This document shows, piece after piece, positions 4,996 through 44,766 of a DNA stretch of 64,000 nucleotides (position 1 is the stretch's first letter; the number at the start of each line of letters is the position of its first letter). The stretch lies in the IMG/VR virus record IMGVR_UViG_3300020548_000009, positions 20,685 to 84,684 of that record, one strand, 5' to 3'. Both the position numbers and the translations under genes were made by a program. Origin of the DNA: a virus. The notes under the pieces were generated by a model. The model did no database searches. It had not been told where the DNA came from and saw only the letters and a program-made list of their open reading frames with translations.

Positions 4996-5711
4996 TTGAA
5001 TGCCACCCAACCAGCAAAGTTCAGGCACTGCCAGAAACGCTGCACATTGGTGAACCCAGCGTCTTTGAGCATCTGCTCGTTTTCTGAACCACGCAACGGG
5101 ACGAGCACACCCTGAAGTGCCTTTCTCTTTTCCTCTATCTGTTCTTGTGTATAACCTTTATCGGCTTTGAATGTGTGATAAATGTCAACCAACAAATCCT
5201 GACAAAGCGGTGTCTCGCCAAGTATCTTCTCCACGAGAATAAACGCACCATTTAAGGACAAACCATTATGCACTTGCTGATAGAAGTTTTGGCGAATATC
5301 AAGGTGAATGAATTGCGCGGTGAGTACCGACGTGATAAGCGAGTATTCGAGGGGCCGTATCTCGATATCGCTGACATCCGCACAAACAAAACGAACGTTG
5401 TTAAAGTTCCCAAAAAGTTTAGTAGCAGCGTCAATCATGGGCTGACTGGAGTCGACACCAACAGCGGTAGCCGGAACGTCGGCAGGAAGAGCGTCAAGGA
5501 TTTGGTAGATAGTTTCACCACGGCTGCAACCAATATCCAAAAAATTTGACACGTTCGCTGAGCAGAGAATCGGCGCAGCAACTCGCACAACAGAATCGCG
5601 CATGGTCTGATACCCAGGGATTGACCTAGAAATCATGTCGTCAAATACTTTTGTTACGCCTTCATCAAAGGCCCACTTGCCAGTTGGCTTGTAGTTATCG
5701 CGCTCGCTCAT
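4992..5711 (-). CDS. cmoA: CmoA-like carboxy-S-adenosylmethionine synthase
   Basis: WAFDE.V..VFDDMISRSIPGY, DIGCSRG, LVEK, KRKALQGVL, WQCLNF match CmoA along its whole length. Confidence 0.8.
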   Translation of the reverse strand: MSERDNYKPTGKWAFDEGVTKVFDDMISRSIPGYQTMRDSVVRVAAPILCSANVSNFLDIGCSRGETIYQILDALPADVPATAVGVDSSQPMIDAATKLFGNFNNVRFVCADVSDIEIRPLEYSLITSVLTAQFIHLDIRQNFYQQVHNGLSLNGAFILVEKILGETPLCQDLLVDIYHTFKADKGYTQEQIEEKRKALQGVLVPLRGSENEQMLKDAGFTNVQRFWQCLNFAGWVAFK

Positions 5712-31985: not shown

Positions 31986-33080
31986 CTACAAACTACTTAT
32001 TTCCTTAAACACAGACACCCATTCCGGTCCAGTCTTTGACATAGTAAATTCTTTTTCAATAATCTTGTTTATCTTTTTTGACTCTTCTTCGCGTACCTTG
32101 AACTTCATAAGTTCATCAAAATGACCTATCCAATCGGCATCGCATTTTGCAATTCTTCCAACTCCCATCGATGAGAGATACTCATATTCCGGCAAAGCAG
32201 AAGCAACAAAAGGTATTCCAGAGGCGGCATACTCAACGCCTTTGATAAAGGATTTTGCCCTATTAAACGGAATATCATTTAGCGGTACTACACCGATGTC
32301 AAATTTTGCGTGGGCGTCCTGCATTTCAAACAGTGGAACCATTCCGCTAACTGTGCAGTTCTTGGGATTTATGCCAAGCCTCAAGTATGCCGCTGGAGCC
32401 CATATCAGGTGGCCTGCGTGATGAAATTTTATTTTATTTTTTTCCAAGTACGAATCCAAGAAAGGTTGCATTACCTCAAGGTCCATTGACCGCCACGGTG
32501 TAGCGCCAAGCCAGCCGATTACTGGCGCTCTGTTAACCGCTTTTAAGCGCTTAAATGAATTGTTCTGTATGGCGTTGCGAACCATAAATATTGGCTTTGA
32601 CGGATACTTCTTTGAAAAGTAATCGCGTATAAATGGGGTTGAGCAAATTAGCGCATCAGAGACTTTGATTATCTCTGCGTATATTTCTCTATTGTTATCT
32701 TTGTTGGAATTTGGCGAACTGGATTGATATGCCAAATTGGTTGAATGCAGTTCGTCATAAAGGTCATCTATGTCAACAACTATCTTTTGACCACGTGACT
32801 GTGCCTTTGGAATTCGCTCAAGAACTTCCTTTGACATAATAACTTTCAACACAATAATATTGTTGTTGTTAGAAAAACTTTTATTCAATCTTTTGATTGC
32901 AAACTCTCCATTTGGTTTTACTGACAAAAATCCAAAAGCAGATGCAGCGCCAGCAAGATTTAACTGCTGCGACGGAAGTATGGACCGATACCAAGTGCAC
33001 CCATTTGGAACATGCTGGCCGTCAACGACTGACCAGTCAAGAGATGCAAATCCAACATTCATTTTGGATAATTTGTTCAT
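31986..33080 (-). CDS. glycosyltransferase (GT-B, GT4-like)
   Basis: VVDIDD, IGWLG, DIGVVPL...FN..KS.IK..EYAASGIP.VAS. Confidence 0.9.
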   Translation of the reverse strand: MNKLSKMNVGFASLDWSVVDGQHVPNGCTWYRSILPSQQLNLAGAASAFGFLSVKPNGEFAIKRLNKSFSNNNNIIVLKVIMSKEVLERIPKAQSRGQKIVVDIDDLYDELHSTNLAYQSSSPNSNKDNNREIYAEIIKVSDALICSTPFIRDYFSKKYPSKPIFMVRNAIQNNSFKRLKAVNRAPVIGWLGATPWRSMDLEVMQPFLDSYLEKNKIKFHHAGHLIWAPAAYLRLGINPKNCTVSGMVPLFEMQDAHAKFDIGVVPLNDIPFNRAKSFIKGVEYAASGIPFVASALPEYEYLSSMGVGRIAKCDADWIGHFDELMKFKVREEESKKINKIIEKEFTMSKTGPEWVSVFKEISSL

Positions 33081-34190
33081 TTACTTGATGTCCATAATAT
33101 TCATGAATACGTTTTCCCATTCTTTTGCAATGACGTCCATAGAGAATTGTTCTTTAAGTATTTCTTGAGAAACTTCTGCTTCATCATTTCGCATATTGTG
33201 ATTCAGTAACTCATCAAAATGGTAAAGCCAATCCGACTCTGAATAGGCTACTCTCCCAATACCGCTTTGGGCAAGGACTTCGTATTCCGGCGAATAAGAA
33301 GCAACAAAAGGTATTCCTGCCGCCGCATACTCAAGGCCCTTCAGGTAGGACTTGGCATGATTGAACGGAATATTGTTCAGGGGAACAATGCCGATATCTA
33401 TTTTCTTAAAAAGTTCTGGCAAGTTGAGTATTGGAATCATTCCTTGTGTCGTTGACTTATCACTTGGAGCCCCAATAAGTTCAGATGCTTTTTGCGCGCC
33501 GTCTATGTGGCCCGAATGGTGAAAGGTCAACTTATTTCGCAAGAGATAATCTCCAAAAAAGCCACTTAGTTGCTCCAGGTCATTGCCCCTCCATGGAGTT
33601 GCCCCGACCCATCCAATAACCGGTTTTTTGTAAAAGTGCTTTTTCTTCTTCCATCTACCCAGGTCAATTCCATTTCTAACCATAAATATCGGCTTCGATG
33701 GGTATTTGAGTTTGTATTGCTCATATAGAAATGGAGTTGAACAAATGAGGGCGTGGGCTCTATTAATTACTGAAAAGTAGATATCTCTGTTGTTCTCTTT
33801 ATTTGTTTCTGGATTTGTAGTTTCAAATGCCCTATTTGATTCCGGCAAGCCGTCAAACCAGTCATCGATATCTACAACAATCTTTTGCCCGCTTGACTCT
33901 GCTTTTTCAATTGCGGTCAAGTTGGATATGTGCATGGCAAGTTTGAACACGATTATGTTGAGTCCACTTGCCGTTCCTTCTTGTGAATAAAGTGGCTTTC
34001 GTATACCTATGCCTATTTCTCCGCTAGAAGATGATGCAACAGTTCCGACAACAGCACCATGTCCAAACTTTTGAAGTTCTTTTAGCGGGAGCACACACCT
34101 ATACCAAGTGCATCCATTTGGGATTAGCAGTTCTCCAACTTTGGACCAGTCCTGAGAAGCAAACCCGACAGAAAACTTAGACACATTCAC
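33081..34190 (-). CDS. glycosyltransferase (GT-B, GT4-like), paralog
   Basis: Same motifs; both share PNGCTWYR at the N-terminus. Confidence 0.9.
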   Translation of the reverse strand: MNVSKFSVGFASQDWSKVGELLIPNGCTWYRCVLPLKELQKFGHGAVVGTVASSSSGEIGIGIRKPLYSQEGTASGLNIIVFKLAMHISNLTAIEKAESSGQKIVVDIDDWFDGLPESNRAFETTNPETNKENNRDIYFSVINRAHALICSTPFLYEQYKLKYPSKPIFMVRNGIDLGRWKKKKHFYKKPVIGWVGATPWRGNDLEQLSGFFGDYLLRNKLTFHHSGHIDGAQKASELIGAPSDKSTTQGMIPILNLPELFKKIDIGIVPLNNIPFNHAKSYLKGLEYAAAGIPFVASYSPEYEVLAQSGIGRVAYSESDWLYHFDELLNHNMRNDEAEVSQEILKEQFSMDVIAKEWENVFMNIMDIK

Positions 34191-34197
34191 AATGTAA

Positions 34198-35061
34198 CTA
34201 TTTTGTATCTAAACCAATGACAAAGTAATGTCCACCACCTAAATGGTCCGGCACATTTACTGGCGAAGCAAACACGTTACCGACTGGAATATGTCGATTC
34301 TCAAGGTTGCCATGCGTAAGTTTGGATGCATCTTCCCTGAGATTTTTTACCCACTTGATTGAATCGAGTTCCGATGTTTTTTGACTTGGGGATGGTGTTG
34401 ATTCGTTCCTGCCTTGGGCAAACCAAGACAGATACGCATAACGAACACCTTGGATAACTGGCTTTATGCTGTGGCAGCCAGCATAAGAAGATGGGTACAT
34501 GAGAATGTCTCCCACCTTTGGCTTGAATTCAATACCCCAAGGTGCATAAGAGACCTCTCCTCCAACATAATCATCATTGAGGATGACCGCTGCGGTGACA
34601 GTATTACAGATAGGGAAGGACGAAAGCGGAGTTGCGTTGTCTTCACCGTATGGCAAATCGCAGTCCGAGTGAGGTCCTATTCCTTGACCCTCTTCATATC
34701 TGATGAAATAACCTCTTGTTCTCCATCGAATTGAATTAATCACTACCGGGAATAGCGCAGCATACTGAACCATGCTTTGATAAAGGGCATTTTCCAACGA
34801 AAGAATGAAATCAACATGCTCTTTCGGCATGTCCTGATAAAGATAATTGTTGTACCTTATTGGAGCAGATTGGATGTCTTCATCTGAATATTCGTATAAA
34901 CCGTTGTTTAGTTTTACATCTTTCGATATTGGCGATTCCGTGTACCCTTGAGGCAGTGTATTTTTTTCAATACCACTCATTACCTCTTTAAATAAATCTT
35001 GATTTATCAAAGACAAGTTTCCAAATTGGACAATTCCTGAGCCGTGATGATGGATGTTCAT
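34198..35061 (-). CDS. 2OG-Fe(II) oxygenase, P4H-like, paralog group A
   Basis: HSD...LNDDYVGGE...HSIKPVIQGVRY; TAATG-coupled. Confidence 0.9.
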   Translation of the reverse strand: MNIHHHGSGIVQFGNLSLINQDLFKEVMSGIEKNTLPQGYTESPISKDVKLNNGLYEYSDEDIQSAPIRYNNYLYQDMPKEHVDFILSLENALYQSMVQYAALFPVVINSIRWRTRGYFIRYEEGQGIGPHSDCDLPYGEDNATPLSSFPICNTVTAAVILNDDYVGGEVSYAPWGIEFKPKVGDILMYPSSYAGCHSIKPVIQGVRYAYLSWFAQGRNESTPSPSQKTSELDSIKWVKNLREDASKLTHGNLENRHIPVGNVFASPVNVPDHLGGGHYFVIGLDTK

Positions 35062-35936
35062 TACCAAATCCTTGATACGAGTGTGTGTAGGTGAGAACTG
35101 CCAGATGGGTCTTTTTTGTTGGCAAAAGCCAAAACATCCTCACGGAGTGAAGGCATGTACACATTAGTGGCCGATGAGTTAACCGAAGGGTCCACTACAT
35201 ATTCTCCAACTGCCTGATTTGGCGTTCCGTGCGCATACCAGCCCAAGTACGAGTACCTGTGCCCTCCAGTGACGGTTCTCACTTCGTGTCCTGCAACATA
35301 GTTGGAAGGAAACATCAGCACGTCACCCTTTTGTGGCTTGTATGTTATGTTCAAATAATTAAAGTGATGGTGGCCGCCAGTAAAGTTTTTTCCGTCTAAT
35401 TCTTCTTCTGTATCAACGCAATCGTTGAGATAAATCAAACATGAAACACTGTTTCTTGTGGCCAACTGTTGCTTTGGGTGGTCAAAACCATATGCATAGT
35501 CGGCACTCGTATCGCTATGAATCCCCAAGTAAAGTCCGCCCTTTGTTGGCGAATAAGAAACGAAATGCCCCTTAACTTTCCACCACACAACCTTGTAGGC
35601 CAACGGATATTCCCAAAAATAATGAAGCAGGCATTCATCTCTTGTTGATTCAAGCGCGTTAAGCAAGTTGACAACATCGGCATCATTTGATTGGTGCGCC
35701 ACCGAGCATCTGCGGGGCATGTCGCCTGCTGCGTCTTCGGAATAGATATAGTCGCTTTTGTTTGAAAGAATCTTTTCGCCAGTTTCTGGGTCTATTGCCG
35801 GCTTGTACATTGATGGCGAATCAAGGTCTACCAGTTCCTCGGCAATATCAAATACCGAGTCCCAATCCAGGGAGATTGCGTTCTTGAACAAAACTACGCC
35901 ACCGCCCAAGTTCTCTATCAAGCAATTGCTATTCAT
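35061..35936 (-). CDS. 2OG-Fe(II) oxygenase, P4H-like, paralog group A
   Basis: HSD...YLND...FTGG...HEVRTVTGGHRY. Confidence 0.9.
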   Translation of the reverse strand: MNSNCLIENLGGGVVLFKNAISLDWDSVFDIAEELVDLDSPSMYKPAIDPETGEKILSNKSDYIYSEDAAGDMPRRCSVAHQSNDADVVNLLNALESTRDECLLHYFWEYPLAYKVVWWKVKGHFVSYSPTKGGLYLGIHSDTSADYAYGFDHPKQQLATRNSVSCLIYLNDCVDTEEELDGKNFTGGHHHFNYLNITYKPQKGDVLMFPSNYVAGHEVRTVTGGHRYSYLGWYAHGTPNQAVGEYVVDPSVNSSATNVYMPSLREDVLAFANKKDPSGSSHLHTLVSRIW

Positions 35937-36840
35937 TTACAATGTTCCTGCTTTGCGGTAAATATTTTTTAGTGCTTGAACTATGAGTTCTTGTTGGAAC
36001 CCCAGTCATCAATGGCTTTAGTTTACTTGATGAATGCTTTTCACTAATGTACGAAACATAATCGTCAACAATAGTTGGCAGCCAAACCTGGCTTTGCTTG
36101 CCAACCGGGACACTTGGTCCTGGCTGTATGCCTCGTTCGATATGGGCTGAGCCATGCGAAAAATAAGAAATGTAAACGTATCTCTCCCCACTCAGGCATG
36201 GCCTCACTTCATGTGTGCCAAGGTAGTTTGATGGGAATATGAGCAAATCGCCAGATTTTGGTTGATGTACAGAATTGGCATATACGAATTCAATTTCTCC
36301 ACCGCTGTATTCATATTTGCCTAGTTCTTTTTGACTCCCAACGGACGAATTTAAATACAGCAACACACTCAATACATGCCTTGTAGCAAGTTGTAAATCC
36401 GGCTCAAAACCAACTTGATAATTCACTTCGTTGTCGTTGTGAGTCCCCATGCTGCTGCCTGCGCCATAAGCGGCCACATGGCCAGTTTCCGTCCACCATA
36501 TATTTGGGAGAACATGCGGGTACATTTCTATGTACATCAAAAGATGTTCATAGATGGTTTTTTCACATTCATTAAAAAATTCAACCAACTCTTTCGGACT
36601 ATCTTCGTTGATGAAGTCCATGATGTGACTTGCGCTCTTTTTTATGTCTTCAATTTCGTATCTGTGGCCGCTTCTGTTTATCGCATAAGGCTCTTGTCCA
36701 TCCTCATGAACAATGGTGTAATCGTCTTTAATTGCCTTCTCTTTGAGCGATGAAAAATATGGAATAACCAGGTCTTGGTCAACTTCTATAGAATTTGGGA
36801 AACAGACAATGCCCATGCCGTAATTTATTGAAGTTTCCAT
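35929..36840 (-). CDS. 2OG-Fe(II) oxygenase, P4H-like, paralog group A
   Basis: HND...YLN...YSGGE...HEVRPCLSGERY; TAGTAT 6 nt before ATG 36840. Confidence 0.9.
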   Translation of the reverse strand: METSINYGMGIVCFPNSIEVDQDLVIPYFSSLKEKAIKDDYTIVHEDGQEPYAINRSGHRYEIEDIKKSASHIMDFINEDSPKELVEFFNECEKTIYEHLLMYIEMYPHVLPNIWWTETGHVAAYGAGSSMGTHNDNEVNYQVGFEPDLQLATRHVLSVLLYLNSSVGSQKELGKYEYSGGEIEFVYANSVHQPKSGDLLIFPSNYLGTHEVRPCLSGERYVYISYFSHGSAHIERGIQPGPSVPVGKQSQVWLPTIVDDYVSYISEKHSSSKLKPLMTGVPTRTHSSSTKKYLPQSRNIVNE

Positions 36841-36879
36841 ACACAAATACTATATGGGCACAAACCCACAAGCAAGAAT

Positions 36880-37626
36880 CTAATTCTTTACAAAAACCGT
36901 AACCCCGTAAAATTGCGGAAAATGATACGAGGTTCCCGACAAGCCTTTGAGATTTTCATGGAACTGGTAATACGGGTGCCAAGTGTATGAGGACGAGTAC
37001 ATATTTGATGCATCGTTTGTTGCGGAAATAACAAGCGTCCCGCCCGGAGCCAAAGCGTTGACCAACGAATCGAGATACTCCATATCAAACGCCACATCCC
37101 AGGATTGAACTGCAATCATTTCAAATTGTTCATCGATTCCAGAAATAAGTTCTGACTTGTCGTACACCGAGTACCCAAAGGAGGTGTGCTCGTAAACGTT
37201 TTTTAGATTTTTCTCATACATGAAAAGGCCGACATCGTTCACAAAATTTATATTTGCATTTTTGAAACCGTCAAAAACATTTTCTGGCGCCAAAAGAAAA
37301 CGAGACACCGAACTGCTAAGTCCCCCAACAAACAGTATTGATGTTGGTTGCTTGGTGCGAATTAAAAAATCCTCTATTGCCATTTGGGGAATTATCGCGC
37401 CAACCCAAAATTCATCAGTCATGTCTTTTGAAACTCGCCACTGCATTGACACGGTGGACAAACCCACAGCGTTATGGCTCAAGTCAACACTTGCCTCGGC
37501 CATCGTGTTCCAGCACTTGGTTGACCAGTCTTCCATGTTTGTTTTAAATTCATTGGAGACCAGCGACGTGCCAGACGAAGAAAGTTGTGTACTTACCATT
37601 CCGGCGAAAAGGACTTCTGGTTTCAT
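36880..37626 (-). CDS. divergent class I SAM-dependent (O-)methyltransferase-like protein
   Basis: KQPTSILFVG (degenerate motif I), EQFEMIAV, LVNALAPGGTLVI. Confidence 0.55.
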   Translation of the reverse strand: MKPEVLFAGMVSTQLSSSGTSLVSNEFKTNMEDWSTKCWNTMAEASVDLSHNAVGLSTVSMQWRVSKDMTDEFWVGAIIPQMAIEDFLIRTKQPTSILFVGGLSSSVSRFLLAPENVFDGFKNANINFVNDVGLFMYEKNLKNVYEHTSFGYSVYDKSELISGIDEQFEMIAVQSWDVAFDMEYLDSLVNALAPGGTLVISATNDASNMYSSSYTWHPYYQFHENLKGLSGTSYHFPQFYGVTVFVKN

Positions 37627-37925
37627 AGTTCTTTCCCGTATTTAGATACTTGCAAATAGAAAAAAGCATTTCTAAGTTTCGGTATAAAGAAACTGTAATT
37701 GCGATAAATAAATGGATACGCTGGGTCTCTTCCAAATCCAGAATCTTTTGTGGAAAAAGTTTCTCTTAGGGCAGTGATAATTTGACCAATTTCGTAACTT
37801 TCAAAGTTGGCAGGGTCGAGACCGGTAACAAAAAGAATTTCAGCGATGTCTTGCCACAAATCCACAATATGCTTATCTGCGTCAAAAAGTTTTTCTGCTG
37901 AATTGGCAGCACACGACCTTGGCAT
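37623..37925 (-). CDS. small protein with G(L/V)D-motif, paralog 3
   Basis: ILFVTGLDPANFE. Confidence 0.6.
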   Translation of the reverse strand: MPRSCAANSAEKLFDADKHIVDLWQDIAEILFVTGLDPANFESYEIGQIITALRETFSTKDSGFGRDPAYPFIYRNYSFFIPKLRNAFFYLQVSKYGKEL

Positions 37926-37929
37926 ATCT

Positions 37930-38118
37930 TTACTGCTCTTTCGCTAAAAATCGGTCAGTGATATCGCAATTCATCATTTGACCGTTTTTAAATTCCCACT
38001 GCCTTGTGTCTGGGTTCCATTGAGCAACATTGTTCTCATAATCCTTATACCTCAGCATGCGCGGCTTTTCTTCCTTTGCCTCATCTAGGTGAAGTGGAAC
38101 AACTGGCTTTGGAATCAT
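37930..38118 (-). CDS. hypothetical 62-aa protein
   Basis: Tightly packed ORF; QWNPDTRQW. Confidence 0.55.
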   Translation of the reverse strand: MIPKPVVPLHLDEAKEEKPRMLRYKDYENNVAQWNPDTRQWEFKNGQMMNCDITDRFLAKEQ

Positions 38119-38120
38119 GT

Positions 38121-38336
38121 CTAAGAGTCAGAAATCAAAACGTAATTGGCTACTTGACGCTTCAGCGATTCATGAGCAGCATATTCCGAATGCCCCTCTG
38201 GCAAATCGTGGTCGTATGAATCATCAATTGTCGATACGTCGACGCCAAGCGACATGCACAAGACGCCGATTGAGTGCTCAAGAAGTTTTTTTGCTTCTTG
38301 TTTTGCCTTGGCAAGTTGCGCTTCTGAGAGGTTCAT
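38121..38336 (-). CDS. small protein with G(L/V)D-motif, paralog 2
   Basis: LCMSLGVDVSTIDD. Confidence 0.6.
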   Translation of the reverse strand: MNLSEAQLAKAKQEAKKLLEHSIGVLCMSLGVDVSTIDDSYDHDLPEGHSEYAAHESLKRQVANYVLISDS

Positions 38337-38339
38337 TGA

Positions 38340-38588
38340 TTACCCAAGTTTTTCTAGACGTGATTTGAGGGACGCAATCGTTTCAAGTTTTTTCTTTACG
38401 TCCAGTTTCCATTGCTGAACATCTGTCTGGTTCTCGGCGAAAGACTCAGAAAAAGTGGCTTCGTCAAAGGTGTCAACGTCTACCCCGTAGCGAAGCAGTA
38501 CGCCAAATACTTCTGTTTCCTGCGCTGCAATTGCCTCTTCCACAAGGCGCTTTTGTGTCGCTACGTCAATATTTGTGTTGAGTTTCAT
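38340..38588 (-). CDS. small protein with G(L/V)D-motif, paralog 1
   Basis: LLRYGVDVDTFDE; AAGGAG SD. Confidence 0.65.
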   Translation of the reverse strand: MKLNTNIDVATQKRLVEEAIAAQETEVFGVLLRYGVDVDTFDEATFSESFAENQTDVQQWKLDVKKKLETIASLKSRLEKLG

Positions 38589-38669
38589 TGGTCTCCTTTT
38601 AGCCGCGTCTTGACCGTTGTTGATTCAATAATAGCACTGCTACTCAAAAAAAGGCAAAGGTGGCGACGC

Positions 38670-39701
38670 CTATAGCGACTGAACCTTGCCTCGTTTATTG
38701 TTGGCATCAAATACGTCTGAGTGCCTGTACGCCTGCTTCAGGCCATCCTCCCCTTCTAGCGACCTATTTTGGAAAAGGGGATTTGGCTTACCGCTTAACT
38801 CCTCCTCGGATTTACCAAACTCCTCAATGCCACAGTACTTTTTATAATCTTCGTATAATGGCTCTAACCAATGCGGCTCGCACCACGCCTTTACCGTATC
38901 AACGTCGAATACTTCCACGAGCACATTGGGGTCACTGCTTCCTTGAGCGTAAAAAGTTAAATATCCGTACCGATTTCCTTCGGTGACAGTGCGAACGCCA
39001 TGAGTCGCAATGAAATTACATGGAAACACAACTATGTCTCCTGCTTTGGCCTGATACTCAACCCCCAAATAAGGAAAGAATAATTCGCCGCCTGAATACT
39101 GGTTCTCGCCAACCGTTCCCTCATCGACGCAATCGTTGAAATAAGCCATGATTGCAATTGTCTGACGTGCACCCAATTGTCCCTTCGGTATGTACTTCTT
39201 ACCTTTTTCGGCTCTAAAATTTGTGTCGTTGTCATTGTGAACTCCCAAGTAGTTGCCCTTGGAGTATCTCAAAGCATGCCCTCTAGTCCTCCACCAAAGA
39301 GTTGGCAAAACCATTGGAAATTCGTGTATGTATTTCAGTACACATTTATAAATTGAATCTTCCAGATATCGAAAGAAATCAATCATATTTTGTTCGGTGT
39401 TCTCGTTGACAACCTGAAGCACTCTCACCGGCACTTCGTTCATCTGCTCTATGGAGAATTTATTGCCGTCTTCGTTTACGGCATATTTATTTCCTTCTAG
39501 GTCGTAGTCAAATTTCCATCTTTGCTCATGCGCATGCTTCCCTTCTTTGTCAATCCATGGAAGTAATTGTTCTTGATTTACCTTGAAGGCATTTGGAAAT
39601 GCGATTACACCGCCACCAAGTTTGACCATGTCCATAGCCATGATTTCCTTGACTGCTTGGTCATCAATTGTTGGATAATAACCAAAGTATCTATCGTCCA
39701 T
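38670..39701 (-). CDS. 2OG-Fe(II) oxygenase, P4H-like, paralog group A
   Basis: HND...YFND...YSGGELFF...HGVRTVTEGNRY; TATAAT 7 nt before ATG. Confidence 0.9.
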   Translation of the reverse strand: MDDRYFGYYPTIDDQAVKEIMAMDMVKLGGGVIAFPNAFKVNQEQLLPWIDKEGKHAHEQRWKFDYDLEGNKYAVNEDGNKFSIEQMNEVPVRVLQVVNENTEQNMIDFFRYLEDSIYKCVLKYIHEFPMVLPTLWWRTRGHALRYSKGNYLGVHNDNDTNFRAEKGKKYIPKGQLGARQTIAIMAYFNDCVDEGTVGENQYSGGELFFPYLGVEYQAKAGDIVVFPCNFIATHGVRTVTEGNRYGYLTFYAQGSSDPNVLVEVFDVDTVKAWCEPHWLEPLYEDYKKYCGIEEFGKSEEELSGKPNPLFQNRSLEGEDGLKQAYRHSDVFDANNKRGKVQSL

Positions 39702-39717
39702 AAGGCAAATTATAACA

Positions 39718-40425
39718 TTATTGATTTGGAACAGAAATTACAGGAAGTCCTGTGAATGTTGGCCCAATAGTATTGCCATCAGCGTCAAGACCTGTCTTTA
39801 TGCCTTTTGTCCATGTCCATGGACGTTCATTATTGTTGTCGCTCTTTAGTTGTCCATATTTCATTCTTTGTTCCATAAGTTCTTTGTCATCCCATAAATT
39901 TGATACCGAAACGGTCGCATCCGTCATAACCCTGTTGTCGTATATGTTAAAGAAGCAAATTGGCTCACCGGCCTTGAATGTGACAGGCGCGCCAATGACA
40001 TTAATTTTCCAGTTCATTTGAACCTCGTCTGGCCACCAAAATGTAGGAACAGTTGCTGAAAGTGCCTGTGCGTCACTTCTCAAATAGTTTGGCGAACCAG
40101 AAAACCAAGTACTGTAATTTTTTTCTGTTCTCACGACCCAGCCCATTGCAAAAGAAACCATTCCAATTATTGAGCAGTGGACTTGTGTAAAACCGCTTGA
40201 TGTTTTTTCGCCAGACAATATTTTGGGGACTGAGTTGCCGCCATCCCACTGGACAACAACATCCTCACTCAGCACCAGTTCCCAACCTAAAACATTCGCG
40301 ACAGACATTGGCATGCATTGATAAGCATGCTTTTTGTAGGTCTCATCCATCCAGTCTCGCTTGATTCGCGACTGTCTAATTTCTGGCGGGTTTTGTGTCG
40401 TTTTTACAAACTGAACATTTGTCAC
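39718..40425 (-). CDS. DUF6065-like protein
   Basis: RDWMD....HAY.C.P...AN..GWEL...MNW......VTF..GEP.C. Confidence 0.7.
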   Translation of the reverse strand: MTNVQFVKTTQNPPEIRQSRIKRDWMDETYKKHAYQCMPMSVANVLGWELVLSEDVVVQWDGGNSVPKILSGEKTSSGFTQVHCSIIGMVSFAMGWVVRTEKNYSTWFSGSPNYLRSDAQALSATVPTFWWPDEVQMNWKINVIGAPVTFKAGEPICFFNIYDNRVMTDATVSVSNLWDDKELMEQRMKYGQLKSDNNNERPWTWTKGIKTGLDADGNTIGPTFTGLPVISVPNQ

Positions 40426-41111
40426 TGTGATGTGCTCACCCCACGTGTTGCCGCAACTGGAGAATAAGACTGAACCTGCTTGTGGTTCTTGTCGTTGTAG
40501 TCAAACATTGTGACGGCAGAATATTTCACTCCGCTCTGAACTGGAAGTGCTGCGTGAGCGAAAATGTATGTCGATGGGAAGAAAACAATGTCTCCTGCTT
40601 CTGGCTTGAACTTCAAGTCAAAATATGGGAAGAACAGTTCTCCACCTTCATAATCATCGTTTAGATACATGATGGACGATATCGTGCATGTGTAAGAAAA
40701 TCCGTGGTCGGTGTGAGTTTGAAAGTGTTGTTTTGGTCCGTACTTGACGTAATTAATTGCTTCCATCCATTCCATTTTTACGTTGTACATTGACTCATAA
40801 TGACGCAAGCACGGCGTGAGTCTTTCGATTGTGTCTGACCAAATGGCCTTTATTTCCAAGAACTCGCCTGGCGCCTGGTTCGCAAGTTGTTCGCTAATTT
40901 TGCAGTCAAAACAGTCCCTGTAGTCGGGCATCTTTTCCTGGTGTCCGACAAGGGCCTCCATCCACATGTACGGGGGTGTTGTGCTCGTCCCTATCGTCTC
41001 CTCCAAGCGCTCTATCAAACGCAGTTCTTTGGGGAGCATATTTCTGTAGACCATAATCGCGAAGCGAGGGTCTCCAAGATATTCGCACGAAACATTTATG
41101 GCTGAGTTCAT
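40422..41111 (-). CDS. prolyl-4-hydroxylase-like 2OG-Fe(II) oxygenase
   Basis: HTD...YLNDDYEGGELFF...HAALPVQSGVKYS, with the Lys-type 2OG ligand of P4Hs. Confidence 0.9.
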   Translation of the reverse strand: MNSAINVSCEYLGDPRFAIMVYRNMLPKELRLIERLEETIGTSTTPPYMWMEALVGHQEKMPDYRDCFDCKISEQLANQAPGEFLEIKAIWSDTIERLTPCLRHYESMYNVKMEWMEAINYVKYGPKQHFQTHTDHGFSYTCTISSIMYLNDDYEGGELFFPYFDLKFKPEAGDIVFFPSTYIFAHAALPVQSGVKYSAVTMFDYNDKNHKQVQSYSPVAATRGVSTSQ

Positions 41112-41160
41112 TGTATTGGACCTTTCTTGACCTGGGATGTCGTGATAGTAGAATGTTCTT

Positions 41161-42024
41161 ATGAGTATAGCGCCTATTTCGGGGGCAATCGAAACCCTGC
41201 CATTGTCTATTTACGACATAAAAATCAAGTCAGCCGACGGGAAAAACAGTGACGTTTTGGGTGACGCAAGGGGTAAGGTAACCCTGCTTTTCAATGTCGC
41301 CGCAGGCTGCGGGAATATTCCTCAACACGGCGTAATTGAGCAACTTCATCAAATGTATAAGGGAAACCCAGATTTTAAAATTTTGGCTGTGGTTGTTGAC
41401 GACTTTGTGTGTCACGGATACGAACAGTTCCAGGGCGGACTCGCTTCTTATGCTGAAAAAAATGCGCTGAGCATGACCCCAGGTCAAATAGCACAGGATT
41501 ATGCCAAGACCCATTTCGGCTCAACATACGAATTCACTGAGTTGACAAACGGTAGATACGACAAGCACTCGTACAGCGAAGACTATGTTCCAAATGCTCA
41601 AAAGATTCAGGACATTCATGAATTGTGGTTTTATTTGACTGGTTGTCATTCGGCAGATTTTCAAGAAAACGGAACCCCCTATACTGACGAATTTATTCCT
41701 TGGGCAAAAGTAAAGGCGTCAAAGCCAGATGACAAAAGGGGAATGTCCAATTTGACTGGTAATTTTACAAAGTTTTTGATTGATAGGACAGGAACGCAAT
41801 ATTTGCGCTATCACAATGGATTTCTTCTCGGTGAACGAACACCGCATGGCGAGCCATTCCCTTGGTGGCAGGGTGAGGGTTTGGAAAAACTCAAACAAGA
41901 ATTGGGAGAAAAAGAATTTTTTGAGTGGACAAACGCCCCGTATCCAACAAAGTTGCAACAAAAGGGAATTAACGAATCCCTGAGAATAATCAAAAACGAT
42001 ATCGATTACATGCTCGGGATGTAA
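41161..42024 (+). CDS. divergent glutathione peroxidase-family protein
   Basis: GKVTLLFNVAAGCG..PQ and GNFTKFLIDRTG (canonical WNFTKFL). Confidence 0.75.
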   Translation: MSIAPISGAIETLPLSIYDIKIKSADGKNSDVLGDARGKVTLLFNVAAGCGNIPQHGVIEQLHQMYKGNPDFKILAVVVDDFVCHGYEQFQGGLASYAEKNALSMTPGQIAQDYAKTHFGSTYEFTELTNGRYDKHSYSEDYVPNAQKIQDIHELWFYLTGCHSADFQENGTPYTDEFIPWAKVKASKPDDKRGMSNLTGNFTKFLIDRTGTQYLRYHNGFLLGERTPHGEPFPWWQGEGLEKLKQELGEKEFFEWTNAPYPTKLQQKGINESLRIIKNDIDYMLGM

Positions 42025-43044
42025 TCACTTAATCAGAAACAACTTATTCCTATTTGGGATGGGTAGCAAAGAGTCTTTATTGTCCTCAATATTGACTTTT
42101 TCAAATATGCCAAACAGCGCGTTTCTCGTTAGTGATTTTTCGTTGTTTGGTATCGCATCGCAATACAATGACTTCCCTTGCCATGCGATTGCGTCGCCTT
42201 CCATGGGCATGTGTTGATATATTTTCCCAACATCTGCATTTGCCAACCTGTGACAGTAGTGAATATATTCGTTGTATTTTTCATTGGAGGTTAGGTCCCC
42301 AATGATGTTTTGGTCAAGGTCCAGCGCATGCGAACCTGCCGCTATTTGTAATACTCCAGAAATTGGATGATGGTCTTCTATGGCAACCATTTCTATAACT
42401 GTGCCCGGCGAAGTGATTGGCTCATTGCACCATGGCGCCTCCATCTTCCAATGGTGCTGCGACGACCATGTAAAAGCATGAACAAATCTAAGTCCATATG
42501 CCGTGTTCATTGAATCTGCCAATGACTCCATGAAGTCGTTGCACAGAATAGAGACAATTGACTCCGATACAAGATATTCTTTTGTTGAAAACAAATAAGA
42601 CTTTTTTTTGGTGCCCGTCTTTAAAAGCATTTCTTTTGCATATTTTGATTTGTAGTCGCTAATCGCATCTTTTGGTGCTCCGCCTAAACAAACGGAATAA
42701 CCCTTATCTACAAAATCACCATGATTTTCGCTAGAGGTGTACTGCTCAAGTAATCGATAGTCAATATATGATTTACGTCCGCCATTTGTTTTATGCCCAT
42801 ATCCGTTGATATGAATGTTTTTCCCAAAAGTATTTAAAGCATGAAGGAAGCCAACGGACTCAACAAAACCCACATCCAAACCAAGTTCGTCTATTTTTCC
42901 TTCTGCTATTTGTGCCCATGCATTGGCTACGGCTTGATATCCAGTTGTTTCCCCAACCCAGAAGTGTCTAGCAATAATTTCGGTAACTGTGTAGTCGTGC
43001 CACGCAGTTGATGTATCAAAATCTTTTGGTTTATTTACACTCAC
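42025..43044 (-). CDS. degenerate PhyH-like dioxygenase-fold protein
   Basis: VAIED....G.LQ..AGSH and PMEGDAIAW, but no clear HxD...H triad. Confidence 0.55.
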   Translation of the reverse strand: MSVNKPKDFDTSTAWHDYTVTEIIARHFWVGETTGYQAVANAWAQIAEGKIDELGLDVGFVESVGFLHALNTFGKNIHINGYGHKTNGGRKSYIDYRLLEQYTSSENHGDFVDKGYSVCLGGAPKDAISDYKSKYAKEMLLKTGTKKKSYLFSTKEYLVSESIVSILCNDFMESLADSMNTAYGLRFVHAFTWSSQHHWKMEAPWCNEPITSPGTVIEMVAIEDHHPISGVLQIAAGSHALDLDQNIIGDLTSNEKYNEYIHYCHRLANADVGKIYQHMPMEGDAIAWQGKSLYCDAIPNNEKSLTRNALFGIFEKVNIEDNKDSLLPIPNRNKLFLIK

Positions 43045-43066
43045 AAATTCAGACTATCATAACTAT

Positions 43067-43630
43067 ATGGGAATAAACCGTGTCGTCGGCCTTGTTTCTC
43101 TTGGAGTAATGGGGTCATCGCTTGCGTCATCATTGCTTTCGTCTGGGCATTCGGTTATATGGGCCTCCCATGGTCGTTCACAAAAAACAATTGACAGGGC
43201 TCGCTCTGTGGGCGCCATTGATGTTGGGACAATCAAAGAACTTTCAGACCGTTCTGATGTAATTATGTCTGTTGGGTTTGGCAATAGCGGGCCAGAAACC
43301 GCAGAACGTTTGATACATGTGGGCTTTGACAAAATTCTTGTTGACTTCAATTCATTGTGGGGAGAGTCATCAGAGCATTCTTTTTATGAGACTGTGGCGC
43401 AAGGTAAGTATGATTACGTTGACGGAGCAATCCATGGATACCCGCTCAACAGTTCTTTTGATAAAGATGGGTTGACTCGCTTGATGCTCCTGCATGGCGA
43501 GCATGCTCAATTTATTGGGTCTCTGTTTACTGATGATATTTGGACAATCATCTACTGTAAAGAAAAGGCAAAAAAGGAAAATAGGATTATGAGCCAACGA
43601 CCGTATAGAACGATGGAGTCGTATACCTAA
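43067..43630 (+). CDS. NAD(P)-binding domain of 6PGD/3-hydroxyisobutyrate dehydrogenase family
   Basis: VGLVSLGVMGSSLA...GHSVIWAS.GRS..T..RA, SDVIMS, YVDGAI.G. Confidence 0.7.
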   Translation: MGINRVVGLVSLGVMGSSLASSLLSSGHSVIWASHGRSQKTIDRARSVGAIDVGTIKELSDRSDVIMSVGFGNSGPETAERLIHVGFDKILVDFNSLWGESSEHSFYETVAQGKYDYVDGAIHGYPLNSSFDKDGLTRLMLLHGEHAQFIGSLFTDDIWTIIYCKEKAKKENRIMSQRPYRTMESYT

Positions 43631-44225
43631 ATCCTTTTGTAATCATTGTTACCCCATGCAGATAATTGACATCACCGGGGTGCATGACGGCCAAGCCTGG
43701 CTTTGGCCTTACCGTGAGGTCGTGTTGTGGATAAAACAAATCTCCGCCTTCAAAATCGTCGTTGTAATAAAACAGAGAGTTGAGGTCATAGTCAACAAAT
43801 GCATTTGGTCTTCCGTCATTCAATTGTTTGTCCGCGTGAGGTTTTTGCTCAATTCCAGGACGCCATTTCATTATTACGGGAGGGCGTTTGCTGACTTTCA
43901 CTTTGTAAAAGTCTTCAATCGTTTTCTGCATTTTGTCAATATATTTGTCAACAAGTATCCATACCTGTTTGTTGAGCCGTTCTAATATCTCGCTACTGCA
44001 CTGTCTGTCGTTCCAATAATCTGCGTTATATAAACAAGTTCCATCTTCGGCGTACACGCTTTCAGCAGAATTGTTCCACTGATTAATGGTTGGGCAAAAC
44101 TCCTGAATAAGTTTCAAATCTTCCAATTCAATAAAATTGTCAATGACAACAATATTTGATGAACTGTTTCCGAAATGTCCCGGCTTGATTTTCCATGGGC
44201 TTTCTGCTGTAACGTCCGTGCTCAT
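43587..44225 (-). CDS. prolyl-hydroxylase-like 2OG-Fe(II) oxygenase resembling prolyl 3-hydroxylases
   Basis: PHAD...DY...YYNDDFEGG...HGVT.IT.G.R. Confidence 0.85.
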   Translation of the reverse strand: MSTDVTAESPWKIKPGHFGNSSSNIVVIDNFIELEDLKLIQEFCPTINQWNNSAESVYAEDGTCLYNADYWNDRQCSSEILERLNKQVWILVDKYIDKMQKTIEDFYKVKVSKRPPVIMKWRPGIEQKPHADKQLNDGRPNAFVDYDLNSLFYYNDDFEGGDLFYPQHDLTVRPKPGLAVMHPGDVNYLHGVTMITKGFRYTTPSFYTVVGS

Positions 44226-44271
44226 GTCATAACCCTAACAGCCACTGCATTGGAGTTCTGGATTTAACTAA

Positions 44272-44763
44272 TCAGCACGGGCCCAATTTTGGATTAAAGC
44301 AGGGTGGGAAATATGGCGGGAAGAAAGGTGGGAAGAATGGCGGGAAGAAAGGTGGGAAGAACGGCGGGAAGTATGGGGGGAAAAAGGGCGGGAAGAACGG
44401 TGGGAAAAACGGAGGGAAAAAAGGCGGAAAATACGGAGGAGTTACCGATGGTGATGCCGCTGAAACATCTGATGGAACGCCATAATTTGTATTTGCGACA
44501 ACCGTAAATGTGTAAGAAGTTCCAGAAGTTAAGCCAGATACGGTTATCGGTGAAGATGAGCCAGTCGCAGTCAAACCGCCAGGGCTTGAGGTCGCCGTAT
44601 ATGTAACTGTTCCCTTGCCAATGTAAGAAGACGGTGTGAAAGCAACGCTTACCTGCTGTGCGTTGTTCGGGTTTGTGTTATTGACAACGGGAACGACCGT
44701 CCCTGTTGGGGACGACGGTGTCGTTGGCTTTTTGCCGCCACTGTCCTTTGGTGCCCTTGCCAT
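44272..44763 (-). CDS. FN3-domain protein with (PP[F/Y/C]F)12 tail, probable fibre-tip/adhesin
   Basis: FN3 (V.FT...YT.T..PGG.T.TG.SSPITV.GL..GT.YTFTV.A); starts 3 nt after the long fibre gene. Confidence 0.8.
   Translation of the reverse strand: MARAPKDSGGKKPTTPSSPTGTVVPVVNNTNPNNAQQVSVAFTPSSYIGKGTVTYTATSSPGGLTATGSSSPITVSGLTSGTSYTFTVVANTNYGVPSDVSAASPSVTPPYFPPFFPPFFPPFFPPFFPPYFPPFFPPFFPPFFPPFFPPYFPPCFNPKLGPC
44296..44439 (-). repeat. 12 x 12-bp coding repeat [PPYF(PPFF)4]2-PPYF-PPCF
   Basis: Direct translation; all four Pro codons and both Phe codons used. Confidence 0.95.
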
Positions 44764-44766
44764 AAA

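What the first reader, a model, noticed from the sequence alone, without database searches (positions are those of the whole stretch)
31986..44763. Candidate phage hydroxyproline-glycoprotein system: (PPFF)-repeat fibre protein followed by a prolyl-hydroxylase/methyltransferase/glycosyltransferase island
Seen: a small FN3 protein directly after the long fibre gene ends in 12 PP-x-F units. The next 12 kb encode six intact HxD...H 2OG-Fe(II) oxygenases, a degenerate PhyH-like protein, a DUF6065-like protein, a methyltransferase-like protein, small paralogs and two GT-B glycosyltransferases. No nucleotide-kinase or nucleotide-synthesis genes are present. Established: in plants and algae, Pro-repeat proteins are hydroxylated by P4Hs and then O-glycosylated. 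Inference: the phage makes a hydroxylated, possibly methylated and glycosylated polyproline fibre tip, which would give a substrate for the otherwise unexplained oxygenase arrays of aquatic phages.
Basis: partly seen in the sequence, partly recalled or inferred. Interest (0 to 1): 0.92.

Follow-up and report, generated by a model that had tools for sequence, protein, structure and literature searches.

The report
Phage proline-repeat fibre tail with hydroxylases
An uncultured lake phage ends a small fibre-associated protein in twelve Pro-Pro-Phe/Tyr-Phe units and encodes collagen-type proline-hydroxylase-like enzymes right behind it; across hundreds of phage fragments repeat and enzymes travel together, so the repeat is a testable candidate substrate for phage oxygenases of long-unknown role, though no chemistry has been shown.

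Summary
A 163-aa FN3-like protein directly after the 1812-aa fibre gene ends in 12 PP[YF]F units, and six intact PF13640 oxygenases, DUF6065, a methyltransferase-fold protein and two paralogous GT-B transferases follow. The hydroxylation reading is supported by comparative genomics only. In FN3-homologue loci, Pro-rich tails and downstream oxygenases co-occur (58 both, 15 neither, 3 oxygenase only, 0 tail only). In contigs found by a PPFF DNA pattern alone, an oxygenase lies within 4 kb downstream in 45/56 and upstream in 1/29. A second repeat, (TPPV)n, which also ends this phage's Tal protein, gives 24/51 downstream against 0/48 upstream, with different oxygenase classes and no cross-over. 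The conserved core is tail, ox212, ox229, DUF6065, a 71-aa protein and the methyltransferase-fold protein. DUF6065 has a dUTPase-like fold and is translationally coupled to the P4H-like ox229. The glycosylation step is not supported for this window's GT-B pair, which occurs in only 4 fetched loci, each time with a homologue of a Thr-rich mucin-like gene in the same locus. Sister phages carry a Gnt1-type (hydroxyproline-GlcNAc transferase family) gene near that position instead. This scan has reported the same Pro/Phe-tail plus hydroxylase system before on other DNA. I found no publication describing it.

The parts
44767..50205 (-). 1812-aa repetitive tail-fibre protein; its stop lies 3 nt before the start of the FN3-PPxF gene
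   Evidence: ORF and translation; fibre homologues lie upstream of the FN3 gene in most related loci
44272..44763 (-). 163-aa FN3-like protein ending in 12 PP[YF]F units plus the cap PPCFNPKLGPC. Candidate substrate and probable fibre-tip or adhesin-associated protein.
   Evidence: More than 373 homologues in viral contigs with variable tails. Unchanged in lake contigs of 2016, 2020 and 2024.
44296..44439 (-). The PPxF repeat itself: 12 units of 12 nt with synonymous scrambling
43587..44225 (-). ox212: 2OG-Fe(II) oxygenase with H130, D132, H190, R200. Core partner of PPxF tails.
   Evidence: Pfam PF13640 weak hit. PDB: B. anthracis P4H 2.7e-4, LH3 2.4e-3, P3H1 2.5e-3. 65 distinct orthologues lie within 3 kb downstream of PPxF tails.
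43067..43630 (+). 187-aa NAD(P)-binding Rossmann protein (NAD_binding_2), convergent with ox212
   Evidence: homologues in L046, L058, L059, L040, L085
42025..43044 (-).
   Evidence: no hits; found only in close relatives
41161..42024 (+). 287-aa glutathione-peroxidase-fold protein, a frequent member of the module
   Evidence: GSHPx E 6e-6, NCBIfam glutathione peroxidase 3e-8; 23 homologous ORFs, often directly after the PPxF gene
40422..41111 (-). ox229: P4H-like oxygenase with H133, D135, H186, K196. Core partner of PPxF tails; its stop overlaps the DUF6065 start by 4 nt.
   Evidence: PF13640 5e-13. PDB best hits are B. anthracis P4H at 3e-7 and PBCV-1 P4H at 7.6e-3. Invariant residues; 79 distinct orthologues after PPxF tails.
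39718..40425 (-). DUF6065 protein (235 aa), dUTPase-like beta-barrel plus a C-terminal helix. Probable partner of ox229.
   Evidence: PF19541 3e-43. AF2 pLDDT 74.7. Foldseek and VIA top hits are all dUTPases, Z 11.2 against 4.6 for the next unrelated fold. Lies downstream of PPFF tails in 26/31 loci.
38670..39701 (-). ox343: first of four diverged paralogous oxygenases (26-32% identical to each other)
   Evidence: variably present in relatives
37623..38588 (-). Four small ORFs (82, 71, 62, 100 aa). The 71-aa one is conserved in 27 related ORFs.
36880..37626 (-). 248-aa class I methyltransferase-fold protein of the cation-dependent O-methyltransferase type, with a degenerate Gly loop
   Evidence: AF2 pLDDT 77, pTM 0.80. 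Foldseek top hits are TrmR, CCoAOMT and catechol-type OMTs at E 1e-7. Atlas result. 30 homologous ORFs.
34198..36846 (-). ox305, ox291, ox289: three further PF13640 oxygenases with intact triads
31986..34190 (-). Two tandem paralogous GT-B (GT4-like) glycosyltransferases, 47% identical. Not a core part of the module.
   Evidence: present only in L003, L005, L082, L083
29227..31920 (-). 897-aa protein with an N-terminal hydrophobic segment, long Thr/Pro runs, an acidic region and C-terminal hydrophobic segments. Alternative acceptor for the GT pair.
   Evidence: translation; a homologue is present in each locus that has the GT pair
14274..17834 (-). 1186-aa Tal-like tail protein ending in (TPPV)12 and a Cys-rich knot: a second candidate substrate
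12030..13385 (-). ox451: 451-aa oxygenase with a C-terminal PF13640 domain (H371, D373, H424, R434) and an N-terminal domain carrying an HxD motif. Partner class of (TPPV)n tails.
   Evidence: the L004 FN3-(TPPV)14 protein is followed by a 52% homologue; 10 distinct orthologues after TPPV tails

Best explanation
The island is a virion-protein tailoring module.

Substrate (inferred). The small FN3 protein made together with the long fibre carries a 48-residue PP[YF]F stalk. In sister phages the same position holds Gly-rich or Cys-rich adhesin-type tails.

Hydroxylation (inferred). During infection the stalk's prolines are hydroxylated by the two conserved Fe(II)/2-oxoglutarate oxygenases encoded downstream. 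ox229 is collagen/viral-P4H-like with Lys at +10. ox212 is LH/P3H-like with Arg at +10. ox229 probably works with its translationally coupled dUTPase-fold partner DUF6065.

Accessory steps (speculative). The GPx-fold and NAD-binding proteins may keep iron or thiols reduced. The O-methyltransferase-fold protein may cap hydroxyls. The four ox343-type paralogs add further, lineage-variable hydroxylations.

Second module. The same logic works elsewhere in this genome, where the Tal protein's (TPPV)12 stalk is paired with ox451.

What is shown: gene content, intact catalytic motifs, folds, and the neighbourhood statistics. What is inferred: that the tail is the substrate, that proline is the residue modified, and every downstream step. 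The GT-B pair more likely serves the adjacent Thr-rich mucin-like protein.
For: (1) In 76 FN3-homologue loci, a Pro-rich tail and any downstream oxygenase co-occur: 58 both, 15 neither, 3 oxygenase only, 0 tail only. Non-redundant Fisher p = 3e-12. Gly-rich-tail sisters such as L065, L066, L013 and L028 have no oxygenase in about 9 kb.

(2) In contigs found by a (PPFF)4 DNA pattern alone, an oxygenase lies within 4 kb downstream in 45/56 and upstream in 1/29. DUF6065 lies downstream in 26/31.

(3) In contigs found by a (TPPV)4 pattern alone, the figures are 24/51 downstream and 0/48 upstream. Of the downstream oxygenases, 51/52 are on the same strand. The rate is 19/27 when the repeat is C-terminal. 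The repeat sits on at least seven unrelated carrier proteins.

(4) Repeat type predicts enzyme class. PPxF goes with the ox212 class (65) and the ox229 class (79). TPPV goes with ox451 (10), t190a (13) and t190b (7). There is no cross-over between the two main sets.

(5) L085, fetched through ox343 alone, has a PPHF/PPFF ORF directly upstream of its ox212 homologue.

(6) The nearest solved relatives of ox229 and ox212 are peptidyl-prolyl and peptidyl-lysyl hydroxylases: B. anthracis P4H, PBCV-1 P4H, LH3, P3H1. The triads and the +10 Lys/Arg are intact.

(7) The ox229 stop and the DUF6065 start overlap by 4 nt here and in L083, L035, L034, L029 and L012.

(8) A Gnt1-family (PF11397) transferase sits in the module of sister phages. 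Gnt1 acts only on hydroxyproline (PMC6939170).
Against: No biochemical or proteomic datum exists; everything is guilt by association.

The phylogenetically corrected test had no power. Only 2 independent pairs lay on supported branches, so part of the association may be shared ancestry and conserved gene order downstream of fibre genes.

The four ox343-type paralogs gave no sequence match to any solved structure.

DUF6065 (dUTPase fold) and the TrmR/CCoAOMT-like fold would also fit nucleotide chemistry.

Cellular DUF6065 homologues lie next to RNase D, Ppx and Ppk genes with no oxygenase nearby.

Eleven of 56 PPFF loci had no oxygenase within 4 kb downstream; two of these have one about 4.5 kb away.

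PPxF has no precedent as a P4H substrate.
Confidence: 0.55

Rival explanations
1. Accessory-gene hot spot. The region behind the fibre genes is where this phage lineage collects auxiliary genes. The oxygenases act on host metabolites, secondary metabolites or 2-oxoglutarate levels, as proposed for cyanophage arrays. The PPxF tail is merely a neighbouring structural feature inherited with them.
For: The island has lower GC (0.41-0.44) than its flanks (0.47-0.50). Its content varies between close relatives, with GTs, paralogs and the 339-aa gene swapped. The published readings of phage 2OG arrays are secondary-metabolite synthesis (PMC2938197) and 2OG/N-stress or DNA repair (PMC3037559). The phylogenetically independent test lacked power.
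Against: It does not explain why two unrelated repeat types each have their own oxygenase classes immediately downstream on the same strand and never upstream, on at least seven carrier scaffolds. It also does not explain why FN3 sisters without Pro tails have no oxygenase.
Confidence: 0.17
2. The tail is the substrate, but proline 4-hydroxylation is not the chemistry, or not the only one. The enzymes hydroxylate other positions: Phe/Tyr beta-carbons, Pro C3, or the conserved Lys near the C-terminus (...F-K in most tails, NPKLGPC here). Alternatively they cross-link the stalk.
For: ox212 matches lysyl hydroxylase LH3 and P3H1 about as well as it matches P4H. Nearly all PPxF tails end in x-F-K, and this one carries a Lys in its cap. 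Up to six or more different oxygenases per locus is more than one Pro-4 position needs. An O-methyltransferase fold of the catechol/diol type is conserved.
Against: The only feature common to the PPxF, TPPV, SPPP and Pn tails that have downstream oxygenases is the Pro-Pro content. TPPV tails have no aromatic residues and no terminal Lys.
Confidence: 0.15
3. Nucleotide or nucleic-acid modification. A dUTPase-fold protein, a TrmR-like O-methyltransferase fold, oxygenases and glycosyltransferases together make a hypermodified base.
For: DUF6065 folds like trimeric dUTPases and dCTP deaminases, Z 11. The best fold hits of the 248-aa protein include the 5-hydroxyuridine O-methyltransferase TrmR. 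A GT-B pair is present.
Against: The oxygenases are PF13640/P4H-type. No TET/JBP or AlkB family was hit. DUF6065 gave no Pfam dUTPase hit, and by eye the phosphate-binding Arg and Gly-rich motifs are absent. No nucleotide kinase, synthase or DNA-modification gene lies in the island. This reading does not explain the repeat-to-enzyme pairing.
Confidence: 0.05

Closest known systems
Chlorovirus PBCV-1 prolyl 4-hydroxylase (A085R; PDB 5c5t) and that virus's own Pro-rich repeat proteins such as (PAPK)n (Eriksson et al. 1999, own knowledge)
   Same: A virus encodes both a small soluble P4H-type enzyme and proteins with Pro-rich tandem repeats that can serve as its substrates. ox229 matches 5c5t by sequence (E 7.6e-3) and B. 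anthracis P4H better (3e-7).
   Different: That is a eukaryotic virus with one enzyme and substrates scattered over the genome. Here a bacteriophage has enzyme batteries placed directly behind each repeat gene, repeat-specific enzyme classes, a dUTPase-fold partner, and hydrophobic PPxF units for which no hydroxylation is known.
Tandem dioxygenase arrays of cyanophages, e.g. Syn9 gp41-gp54 (Iyer et al. 2010, PMC2938197; Sullivan et al. 2010, PMC3037559)
   Same: Several diverged 2OG-Fe(II) oxygenases in a row in an aquatic phage, of unknown function. ox229 hits cyanophage oxygenases at 27-35% identity.
   Different: Those arrays were read as secondary-metabolite, 2OG-level or DNA-repair functions, and no substrate gene was named. 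Here a candidate protein substrate lies at the head of the array. No cultured phage record carried DUF6065 by tblastn.
Skp1 hydroxyproline glycosylation in protists (PhyA P4H, then Gnt1 of CAZy GT60; PMC6939170)
   Same: A cytoplasmic P4H followed by a Hyp-specific GlcNAc transferase. A PF11397 (Gnt1-family, own knowledge of the Pfam entry) gene sits in the module of the sister phages L081/L084 and in 15 other fetched loci.
   Different: The window itself has no PF11397 gene; it has two GT4-like GT-B paralogs. Skp1 has a single target proline, not a repeat.
Plant and algal hydroxyproline-rich glycoproteins such as extensins with Ser-Pro(n) repeats
   Different: The known Hyp-glycosyltransferases are of other families. 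None was hit here. PPxF units lack the Ser/Thr context.
Gly-rich polyproline-II bundle at the fibre tip, gp38 adhesin of Salmonella phage S16 (bioRxiv 10.1101/2023.11.25.568672)
   Same: A small protein encoded after the long fibre gene whose low-complexity, PPII-prone C-terminal part forms the receptor-binding tip. FN3 sisters of this protein end in Gly-rich tails.
   Different: gp38 is Gly-rich and has no known modification. No homology was tested.
GtfA/GtfB O-glycosylation of serine-rich repeat adhesins in Gram-positive bacteria (own knowledge)
   Same: Two tandem paralogous GT-B proteins next to a Ser/Thr-rich surface protein.
   Different: No sequence membership was tested. It concerns the 897-aa gene, not the PPxF tail.

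Membership tests
Collagen-type / viral prolyl 4-hydroxylases (P4Hc, Pfam PF13640) | HxD...H iron triad | tested here: met
   Present in all six island oxygenases, ox451 and the reference TPPV-linked enzymes
Collagen-type / viral prolyl 4-hydroxylases (P4Hc, Pfam PF13640) | Basic residue binding the 2OG C5 carboxylate 10 residues after the distal His (Lys in collagen, algal and viral P4H; own knowledge) | tested here: met
   ox229 has K196, invariant in 15 orthologues. The other five have Arg at +10, as in lysyl and prolyl-3-hydroxylases.
Collagen-type / viral prolyl 4-hydroxylases (P4Hc, Pfam PF13640) | Detectable sequence homology to solved P4Hs | tested here: met
   ox229: 3itq/5hv0 at E 3e-7 and 5c5t at 7.6e-3. 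ox212: 2.7e-4. ox343 gave no PDB hit, so this holds for two of the six only.
Collagen-type / viral prolyl 4-hydroxylases (P4Hc, Pfam PF13640) | Hydroxylation of peptidyl proline | not testable with these tools
   Needs an enzyme assay or mass spectrometry
Trimeric dUTPase / dCTP deaminase superfamily (for DUF6065) | Jelly-roll beta-barrel fold | tested here: met
   Foldseek E 2e-5, with 119 hits at E<=1e-3 and every listed hit a dUTPase. VIA Z 11.2, rmsd 3.1 over 116 residues; the next unrelated fold scores Z 4.6.
Trimeric dUTPase / dCTP deaminase superfamily (for DUF6065) | Five dUTPase motifs, including the phosphate-binding Arg residues and the C-terminal Gly-rich arm | tested here: inconclusive
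   No Pfam dUTPase hit. By eye, GSPNY, WWPD and AGxP stand where motifs II-IV would be, and a helix replaces motif V. No residue-level structural alignment was available.
Cation-dependent class I O-methyltransferases (PF01596; CCoAOMT/TrmR type) for the 248-aa protein | Rossmann-like methyltransferase fold of this subfamily | tested here: met
   The top Foldseek hits listed are all O-methyltransferases, E 1e-7, TM 0.45-0.62. Atlas structural neighbours agree.
Cation-dependent class I O-methyltransferases (PF01596; CCoAOMT/TrmR type) for the 248-aa protein | Sequence membership and a conserved Gly-rich SAM-binding loop | tested here: not met
   No Pfam or NCBIfam hit. The loop after beta-1 is not conserved among 13 homologues. 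It may be a pseudo-enzyme or an unusual binder.
Hydroxyproline O-glycosylation systems (Gnt1/GT60, PF11397) | A PF11397 transferase encoded with the P4H | tested here: not met
   None in the window. Present in sister loci L081/L084 (E 3.6e-32) and in 15 other fetched loci.
GT-B glycosyltransferases (GT4-like) | Sequence match to GT-B families | tested here: met
   PHROG 7162 at 1e-31 and 4e-29. Pfam Glyco_transf_4 and Glyco_trans_1_4 are below cut-off. TuaH-like at 4e-11, far below cut-off.
Nucleic-acid oxygenases (TET/JBP, AlkB) | Pfam match to those families | tested here: not met
   Only PF13640 and PF03171 were hit

The most novel reading that the evidence does not exclude
Lake phages of actinobacteria use a modular substrate-enzyme code. 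Each class of Pro-Pro repeat stalk at a fibre or tail tip (PPxF, TPPV, SPPP/Pn) brings its own pair of dedicated hydroxylases. For PPxF this includes a dUTPase-fold subunit coupled to the P4H. The product would be a hydroxyproline-rich, sometimes glycosylated or O-methylated, polyproline-II rod: a bacteriophage counterpart of collagen and extensin maturation, and the first natural substrate for the oxygenase arrays of aquatic phages.
Probability: 0.35. Interest if true: 0.85.

Novelty: new variant of a known kind. Interest (0 to 1): 0.7.

Why it matters
2OG-Fe(II) oxygenases are among the commonest unexplained genes of aquatic phages. Arrays of them have been known since about 2007-2010, with only speculative roles.

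This system names a concrete protein substrate that can be synthesised as a peptide. It also offers an internal control, because two repeat types with different enzyme classes occur in one genome.

If confirmed, it would show enzymatic post-translational maturation of phage receptor-binding appendages. It would give DUF6065 (about a thousand mostly viral members in one Atlas cluster) a functional context. It would also provide new small P4H-type enzymes with unusual sequence specificities.

If the tails prove unmodified, the tight repeat-enzyme linkage would itself need another explanation.

Tried and rejected
Complex prediction (ox229 with DUF6065) was not available, so no binding test was made.

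treekit independent_pairs on the FN3-domain tree gave only 2-4 usable pairs. The tree rests on 100 columns and most forks are open, so it gave no verdict.

megablast of the island against GenBank phages found no match. tblastn of DUF6065 against the same set found no match. The search for related loci with ox451 alone found nothing.

PDB sequence searches gave nothing meaningful with the DUF6065 profile, the methyltransferase-like profile, ox343, GT369 or the 339-aa protein.

The neighbourhoods of five cellular DUF6065 homologues (RNase D, Ppx, Ppk, amidase) gave no functional hint, and no repeat peptide was seen there.

The promoter and terminator scan gave promoter-like sites at chance level and terminator-like matches I could not interpret.

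No RNA holder is listed among the public runs.

Full-text searches found no paper with DUF6065 and none on hydroxyproline in phage virions.

I rejected reading DUF6065 as a working dUTPase, because the motifs are absent by eye. I rejected reading the GT-B pair as a core part of the module, because it is present in only 4 loci.

Full report
**Setting.** The window is bases 20685-84684 of an 84.7-kb IMG/VR virus record, estimated 64% complete. It has a siphovirus-type structural module: HK97-type major head protein, head protease, Dit, and a 1638-aa tape-measure-sized gene. The major head protein is 43-45% identical to those of Brevibacterium and Gordonia phages, so an actinobacterial host is likely but not shown. 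The stretch 39000-44800 is held nearly word for word in 20 freshwater or lake metagenome runs of 2016, 2020 and 2024. Long contigs from three of those years span 43500-45100 without a single difference. These runs may include the source sample.

**The observation.** It is confirmed. Genes run on the - strand. The 1812-aa fibre gene (44767-50205) is followed after 3 nt by a 163-aa protein (44272-44763). That protein has a marginal fn3 match and a tail of 12 PPxF units, PPYF (PPFF)4 PPYF (PPFF)4 PPYF PPCF, closed by NPKLGPC. The 12-nt DNA units are only about 80% alike and differ synonymously, so this is selection on the peptide rather than fresh slippage.

Downstream lie, in order:
- ox212
- a convergent NAD-binding gene
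- an unassignable 339-aa gene
- a + strand GPx-fold gene
- ox229
- DUF6065
- ox343
- four small ORFs
- a 248-aa protein
- ox305, ox291 and ox289
- two GT-B genes
- an 897-aa Thr/Pro-rich protein with hydrophobic ends

All six oxygenases keep HxD...H and a basic residue at +10. The 'PhyH-like' label of the 339-aa protein could not be verified.

**Is the tail linked to the enzymes?** The FN3 protein has more than 373 relatives in viral contigs. Their N-terminal FN3 parts are alike, but the C-terminal parts differ: PP[YFHW]F runs of 8-27 units usually ending in x-F-K, irregular Pro/Phe tails, Pro runs with Cys-rich knots, or Gly-rich tails.

In 76 loci with enough downstream sequence, a Pro-rich tail and a downstream PF13640-type oxygenase co-occur in 58. 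Neither is present in 15, three have an oxygenase only, and none has a tail only. The non-redundant Fisher test gives p = 3e-12.

This is not corrected for relatedness. The FN3 tree is too poorly resolved for the independent-pairs test. Several neighbouring pairs on that tree do differ in both traits, for example L065 against L001/L002 and L066 against L040. L004 against L013/L028 is similar, with a TPPV tail rather than PPxF.

To escape the FN3-based sampling, I scanned viral contigs for a back-translated (PPFF)4 pattern. Of loci with at least 4 kb on the relevant side, 45/56 have an oxygenase within 4 kb downstream and 1/29 upstream. DUF6065 follows in 26/31 loci with at least 7 kb downstream. 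L085, fetched through ox343 alone, also has a PPHF/PPFF ORF directly before its ox212 homologue. The same module occurs on five phage-like contigs binned into MAGs of unrelated phyla, with GC from 0.35 to 0.48.

**A second, independent repeat.** An earlier first-reader note on this genome (e1-6109453) pointed to the Tal protein (14274-17834), which ends in (TPPV)12 plus a Cys knot. It is followed by the two-domain ox451.

A (TPPV)4 DNA scan returned 116 loci with an in-frame repeat. An oxygenase lies within 4 kb downstream in 24/51 and upstream in 0/48. Of the downstream oxygenases, 51/52 are on the same strand. The rate is 19/27 where the repeat is within 60 residues of the C-terminus. The non-repeat parts of the carrier proteins with a downstream oxygenase fall into at least seven unrelated clusters.

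The enzyme classes differ by repeat. PPxF tails are followed by ox212-class (65 distinct sequences) and ox229-class (79) enzymes. TPPV tails are followed by ox451-class (10) enzymes or by two ~190-aa classes (13 and 7). The two sets do not cross over. L004 shows the swap directly: an FN3 protein of the same family carries (TPPV)14 and is followed by a 52% homologue of ox451 rather than by ox212/ox229.

Further pairs exist in the fetched loci. FN3 proteins ending in (SPPP)n, (TP)n or P33 plus a ...DPKLGPICC-like cap are followed by a 195-aa oxygenase. In both main repeat types there are usually two different enzymes, or one two-domain enzyme, per Pro-Pro unit. This fits position- or regio-specific hydroxylation, but it is only a pattern.

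**What the proteins are.** The best solved relatives of ox229 are Bacillus anthracis P4H (E 3e-7) and PBCV-1 P4H. ox229 has Lys at +10, as collagen-type P4Hs do (the Lys rule is my own knowledge). ox212 matches P4H, LH3 and P3H1 about equally and has Arg at +10. ox343 and its three paralogs are 26-32% alike and have no PDB sequence match.

DUF6065 was modelled from 13 homologues (pLDDT 74.7). It is a dUTPase/dCTP-deaminase-type barrel with an added C-terminal helix. VIA gives Z 11.2, against 4.6 for the next unrelated fold. There is no Pfam dUTPase hit, and by eye the phosphate-binding motifs are replaced by invariant GSPNY, WWPD and AGxP. An invariant but poorly modelled N-terminal segment reads RxWMDxT..KHAYxCxP. 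The DUF6065 start overlaps the ox229 stop by 4 nt here and in many relatives, which suggests a complex. The complex predictor was unavailable.

The 248-aa protein (pLDDT 77) folds like cation-dependent O-methyltransferases (TrmR, CCoAOMT, catechol-type), but it lacks a conserved Gly loop.

Across loci the recurrent core is: tail gene, often a GPx-fold gene, ox212, ox229, DUF6065, a 71-aa protein and the methyltransferase-fold protein.

**Glycosylation.** The two GT-B genes are 47% identical paralogs of PHROG 7162. They occur in only L003, L005, L082 and L083, and each of those loci also holds a homologue of the Thr-rich 897-aa gene. For this window they are therefore more economically read as serving that mucin-like protein.

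The nearest relatives that lack them (L081/L084) instead carry a PF11397 transferase (E 3.6e-32) between the oxygenase array and the mucin-like gene. PF11397-like genes occur in 17 fetched loci, several of them directly behind Pro-repeat/Cys-knot tails. PF11397 is the Gnt1/GT60 family (own knowledge of the Pfam entry), and Gnt1 glycosylates only hydroxyproline of Skp1 (PMC6939170). Hydroxyproline glycosylation is thus plausible in the lineage but not shown for this phage.

**Rivals.**
- Pure accessory-island reading. It is favoured by lower GC, variable content, and the published interpretations of cyanophage arrays. It does not explain the strand-specific, downstream-only, repeat-type-specific pairing.
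- Nucleotide-modification reading. It draws on the dUTPase and TrmR-like folds, but it lacks any nucleic-acid oxygenase family and any nucleotide-metabolism gene.
- Other chemistry on the same tail, such as Lys, Phe/Tyr or Pro-C3 hydroxylation. This remains open.

**Comparison and novelty.** The closest known case is PBCV-1, a eukaryotic virus with one P4H and Pro-rich repeat proteins. The closest phage precedent is the unexplained dioxygenase arrays of cyanophages. I found no paper that names phage Pro-repeat proteins as substrates or that mentions DUF6065.

Within this scan, the same Pro/Phe-tail plus hydroxylase plus dUTPase-fold system has been reported in many other genomes with the same verdict. 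This window is a further instance. The parts I did not see followed up among the notes that my look-ups returned are:
- the (TPPV)n statistics
- the repeat-to-enzyme-class matrix
- the placement of the GT-B pair with the mucin-like gene
- the O-methyltransferase fold

**Verdict.** The feature is real. It is a new variant of virus-encoded prolyl hydroxylation, supported by strong but purely genomic evidence.

Noticed in passing
window 14274-17834 and 12030-13385: A second substrate-enzyme pair in the same genome. The Tal-like protein ends in (TPPV)12 plus a Cys knot, and the two-domain oxygenase ox451 lies about 0.9 kb downstream with small ORFs between. Across viral contigs, TPPV tails have their own oxygenase classes downstream (24/51) and never upstream (0/48).
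   Followed up: yes
window 1405-2016 (+): An eighth PF13640 oxygenase (203 aa, HTD...H...R), far from both repeat genes and on the other strand. Its context was not examined.
   Followed up: no
window 44275-44295; L016:475-1446; L081/L084 tails: A shared short cap, C-F-x-(N/D)-P-K-L-G-P-(I)-C(C), closes otherwise different Pro repeats, (PPFF)n here and (SPPP)n in L016-L020. Most other PPxF tails end in x-F-K instead.
   Followed up: partly
L325-L329 (genome contigs): Cellular DUF6065 homologues (27-33% identical) on large proteobacterial and planctomycete contigs lie beside RNase D, exopolyphosphatase and polyphosphate kinase genes. They have no oxygenase or Pro-rich gene nearby, so the family is not restricted to the hydroxylase context.
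   Followed up: partly
L320-L324 (genome contigs): Five contigs carrying the complete PPxF, oxygenase and DUF6065 module are binned into MAGs of unrelated phyla (Cyclobacteriaceae, Acidibacter, Verrucomicrobiales, Gammaproteobacteria). Most likely these are phage contigs mis-binned, so they are no guide to the host.
   Followed up: no
window 29227-31920: An 897-aa protein with an N-terminal hydrophobic segment, runs of up to 13 Thr, a very acidic stalk and C-terminal hydrophobic helices, directly after the GT-B pair. In L081 the homologue carries a weak C-type lectin match.
   Followed up: partly
window 44310-44417 in runs X1, X7, X10, X20: Summed contig depth over the PPFF-coding repeat is 3 to more than 100 times that of the flanks. 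Many short contigs are about 90% alike there, so many other PPFF-coding genes appear to be present in the same lake samples.
   Followed up: no
window 5708-8574: Two adjacent ParB-like N-terminal-domain proteins (439 and 515 aa), one with a duplicated ParB-like domain. They are not related to the finding.
   Followed up: no
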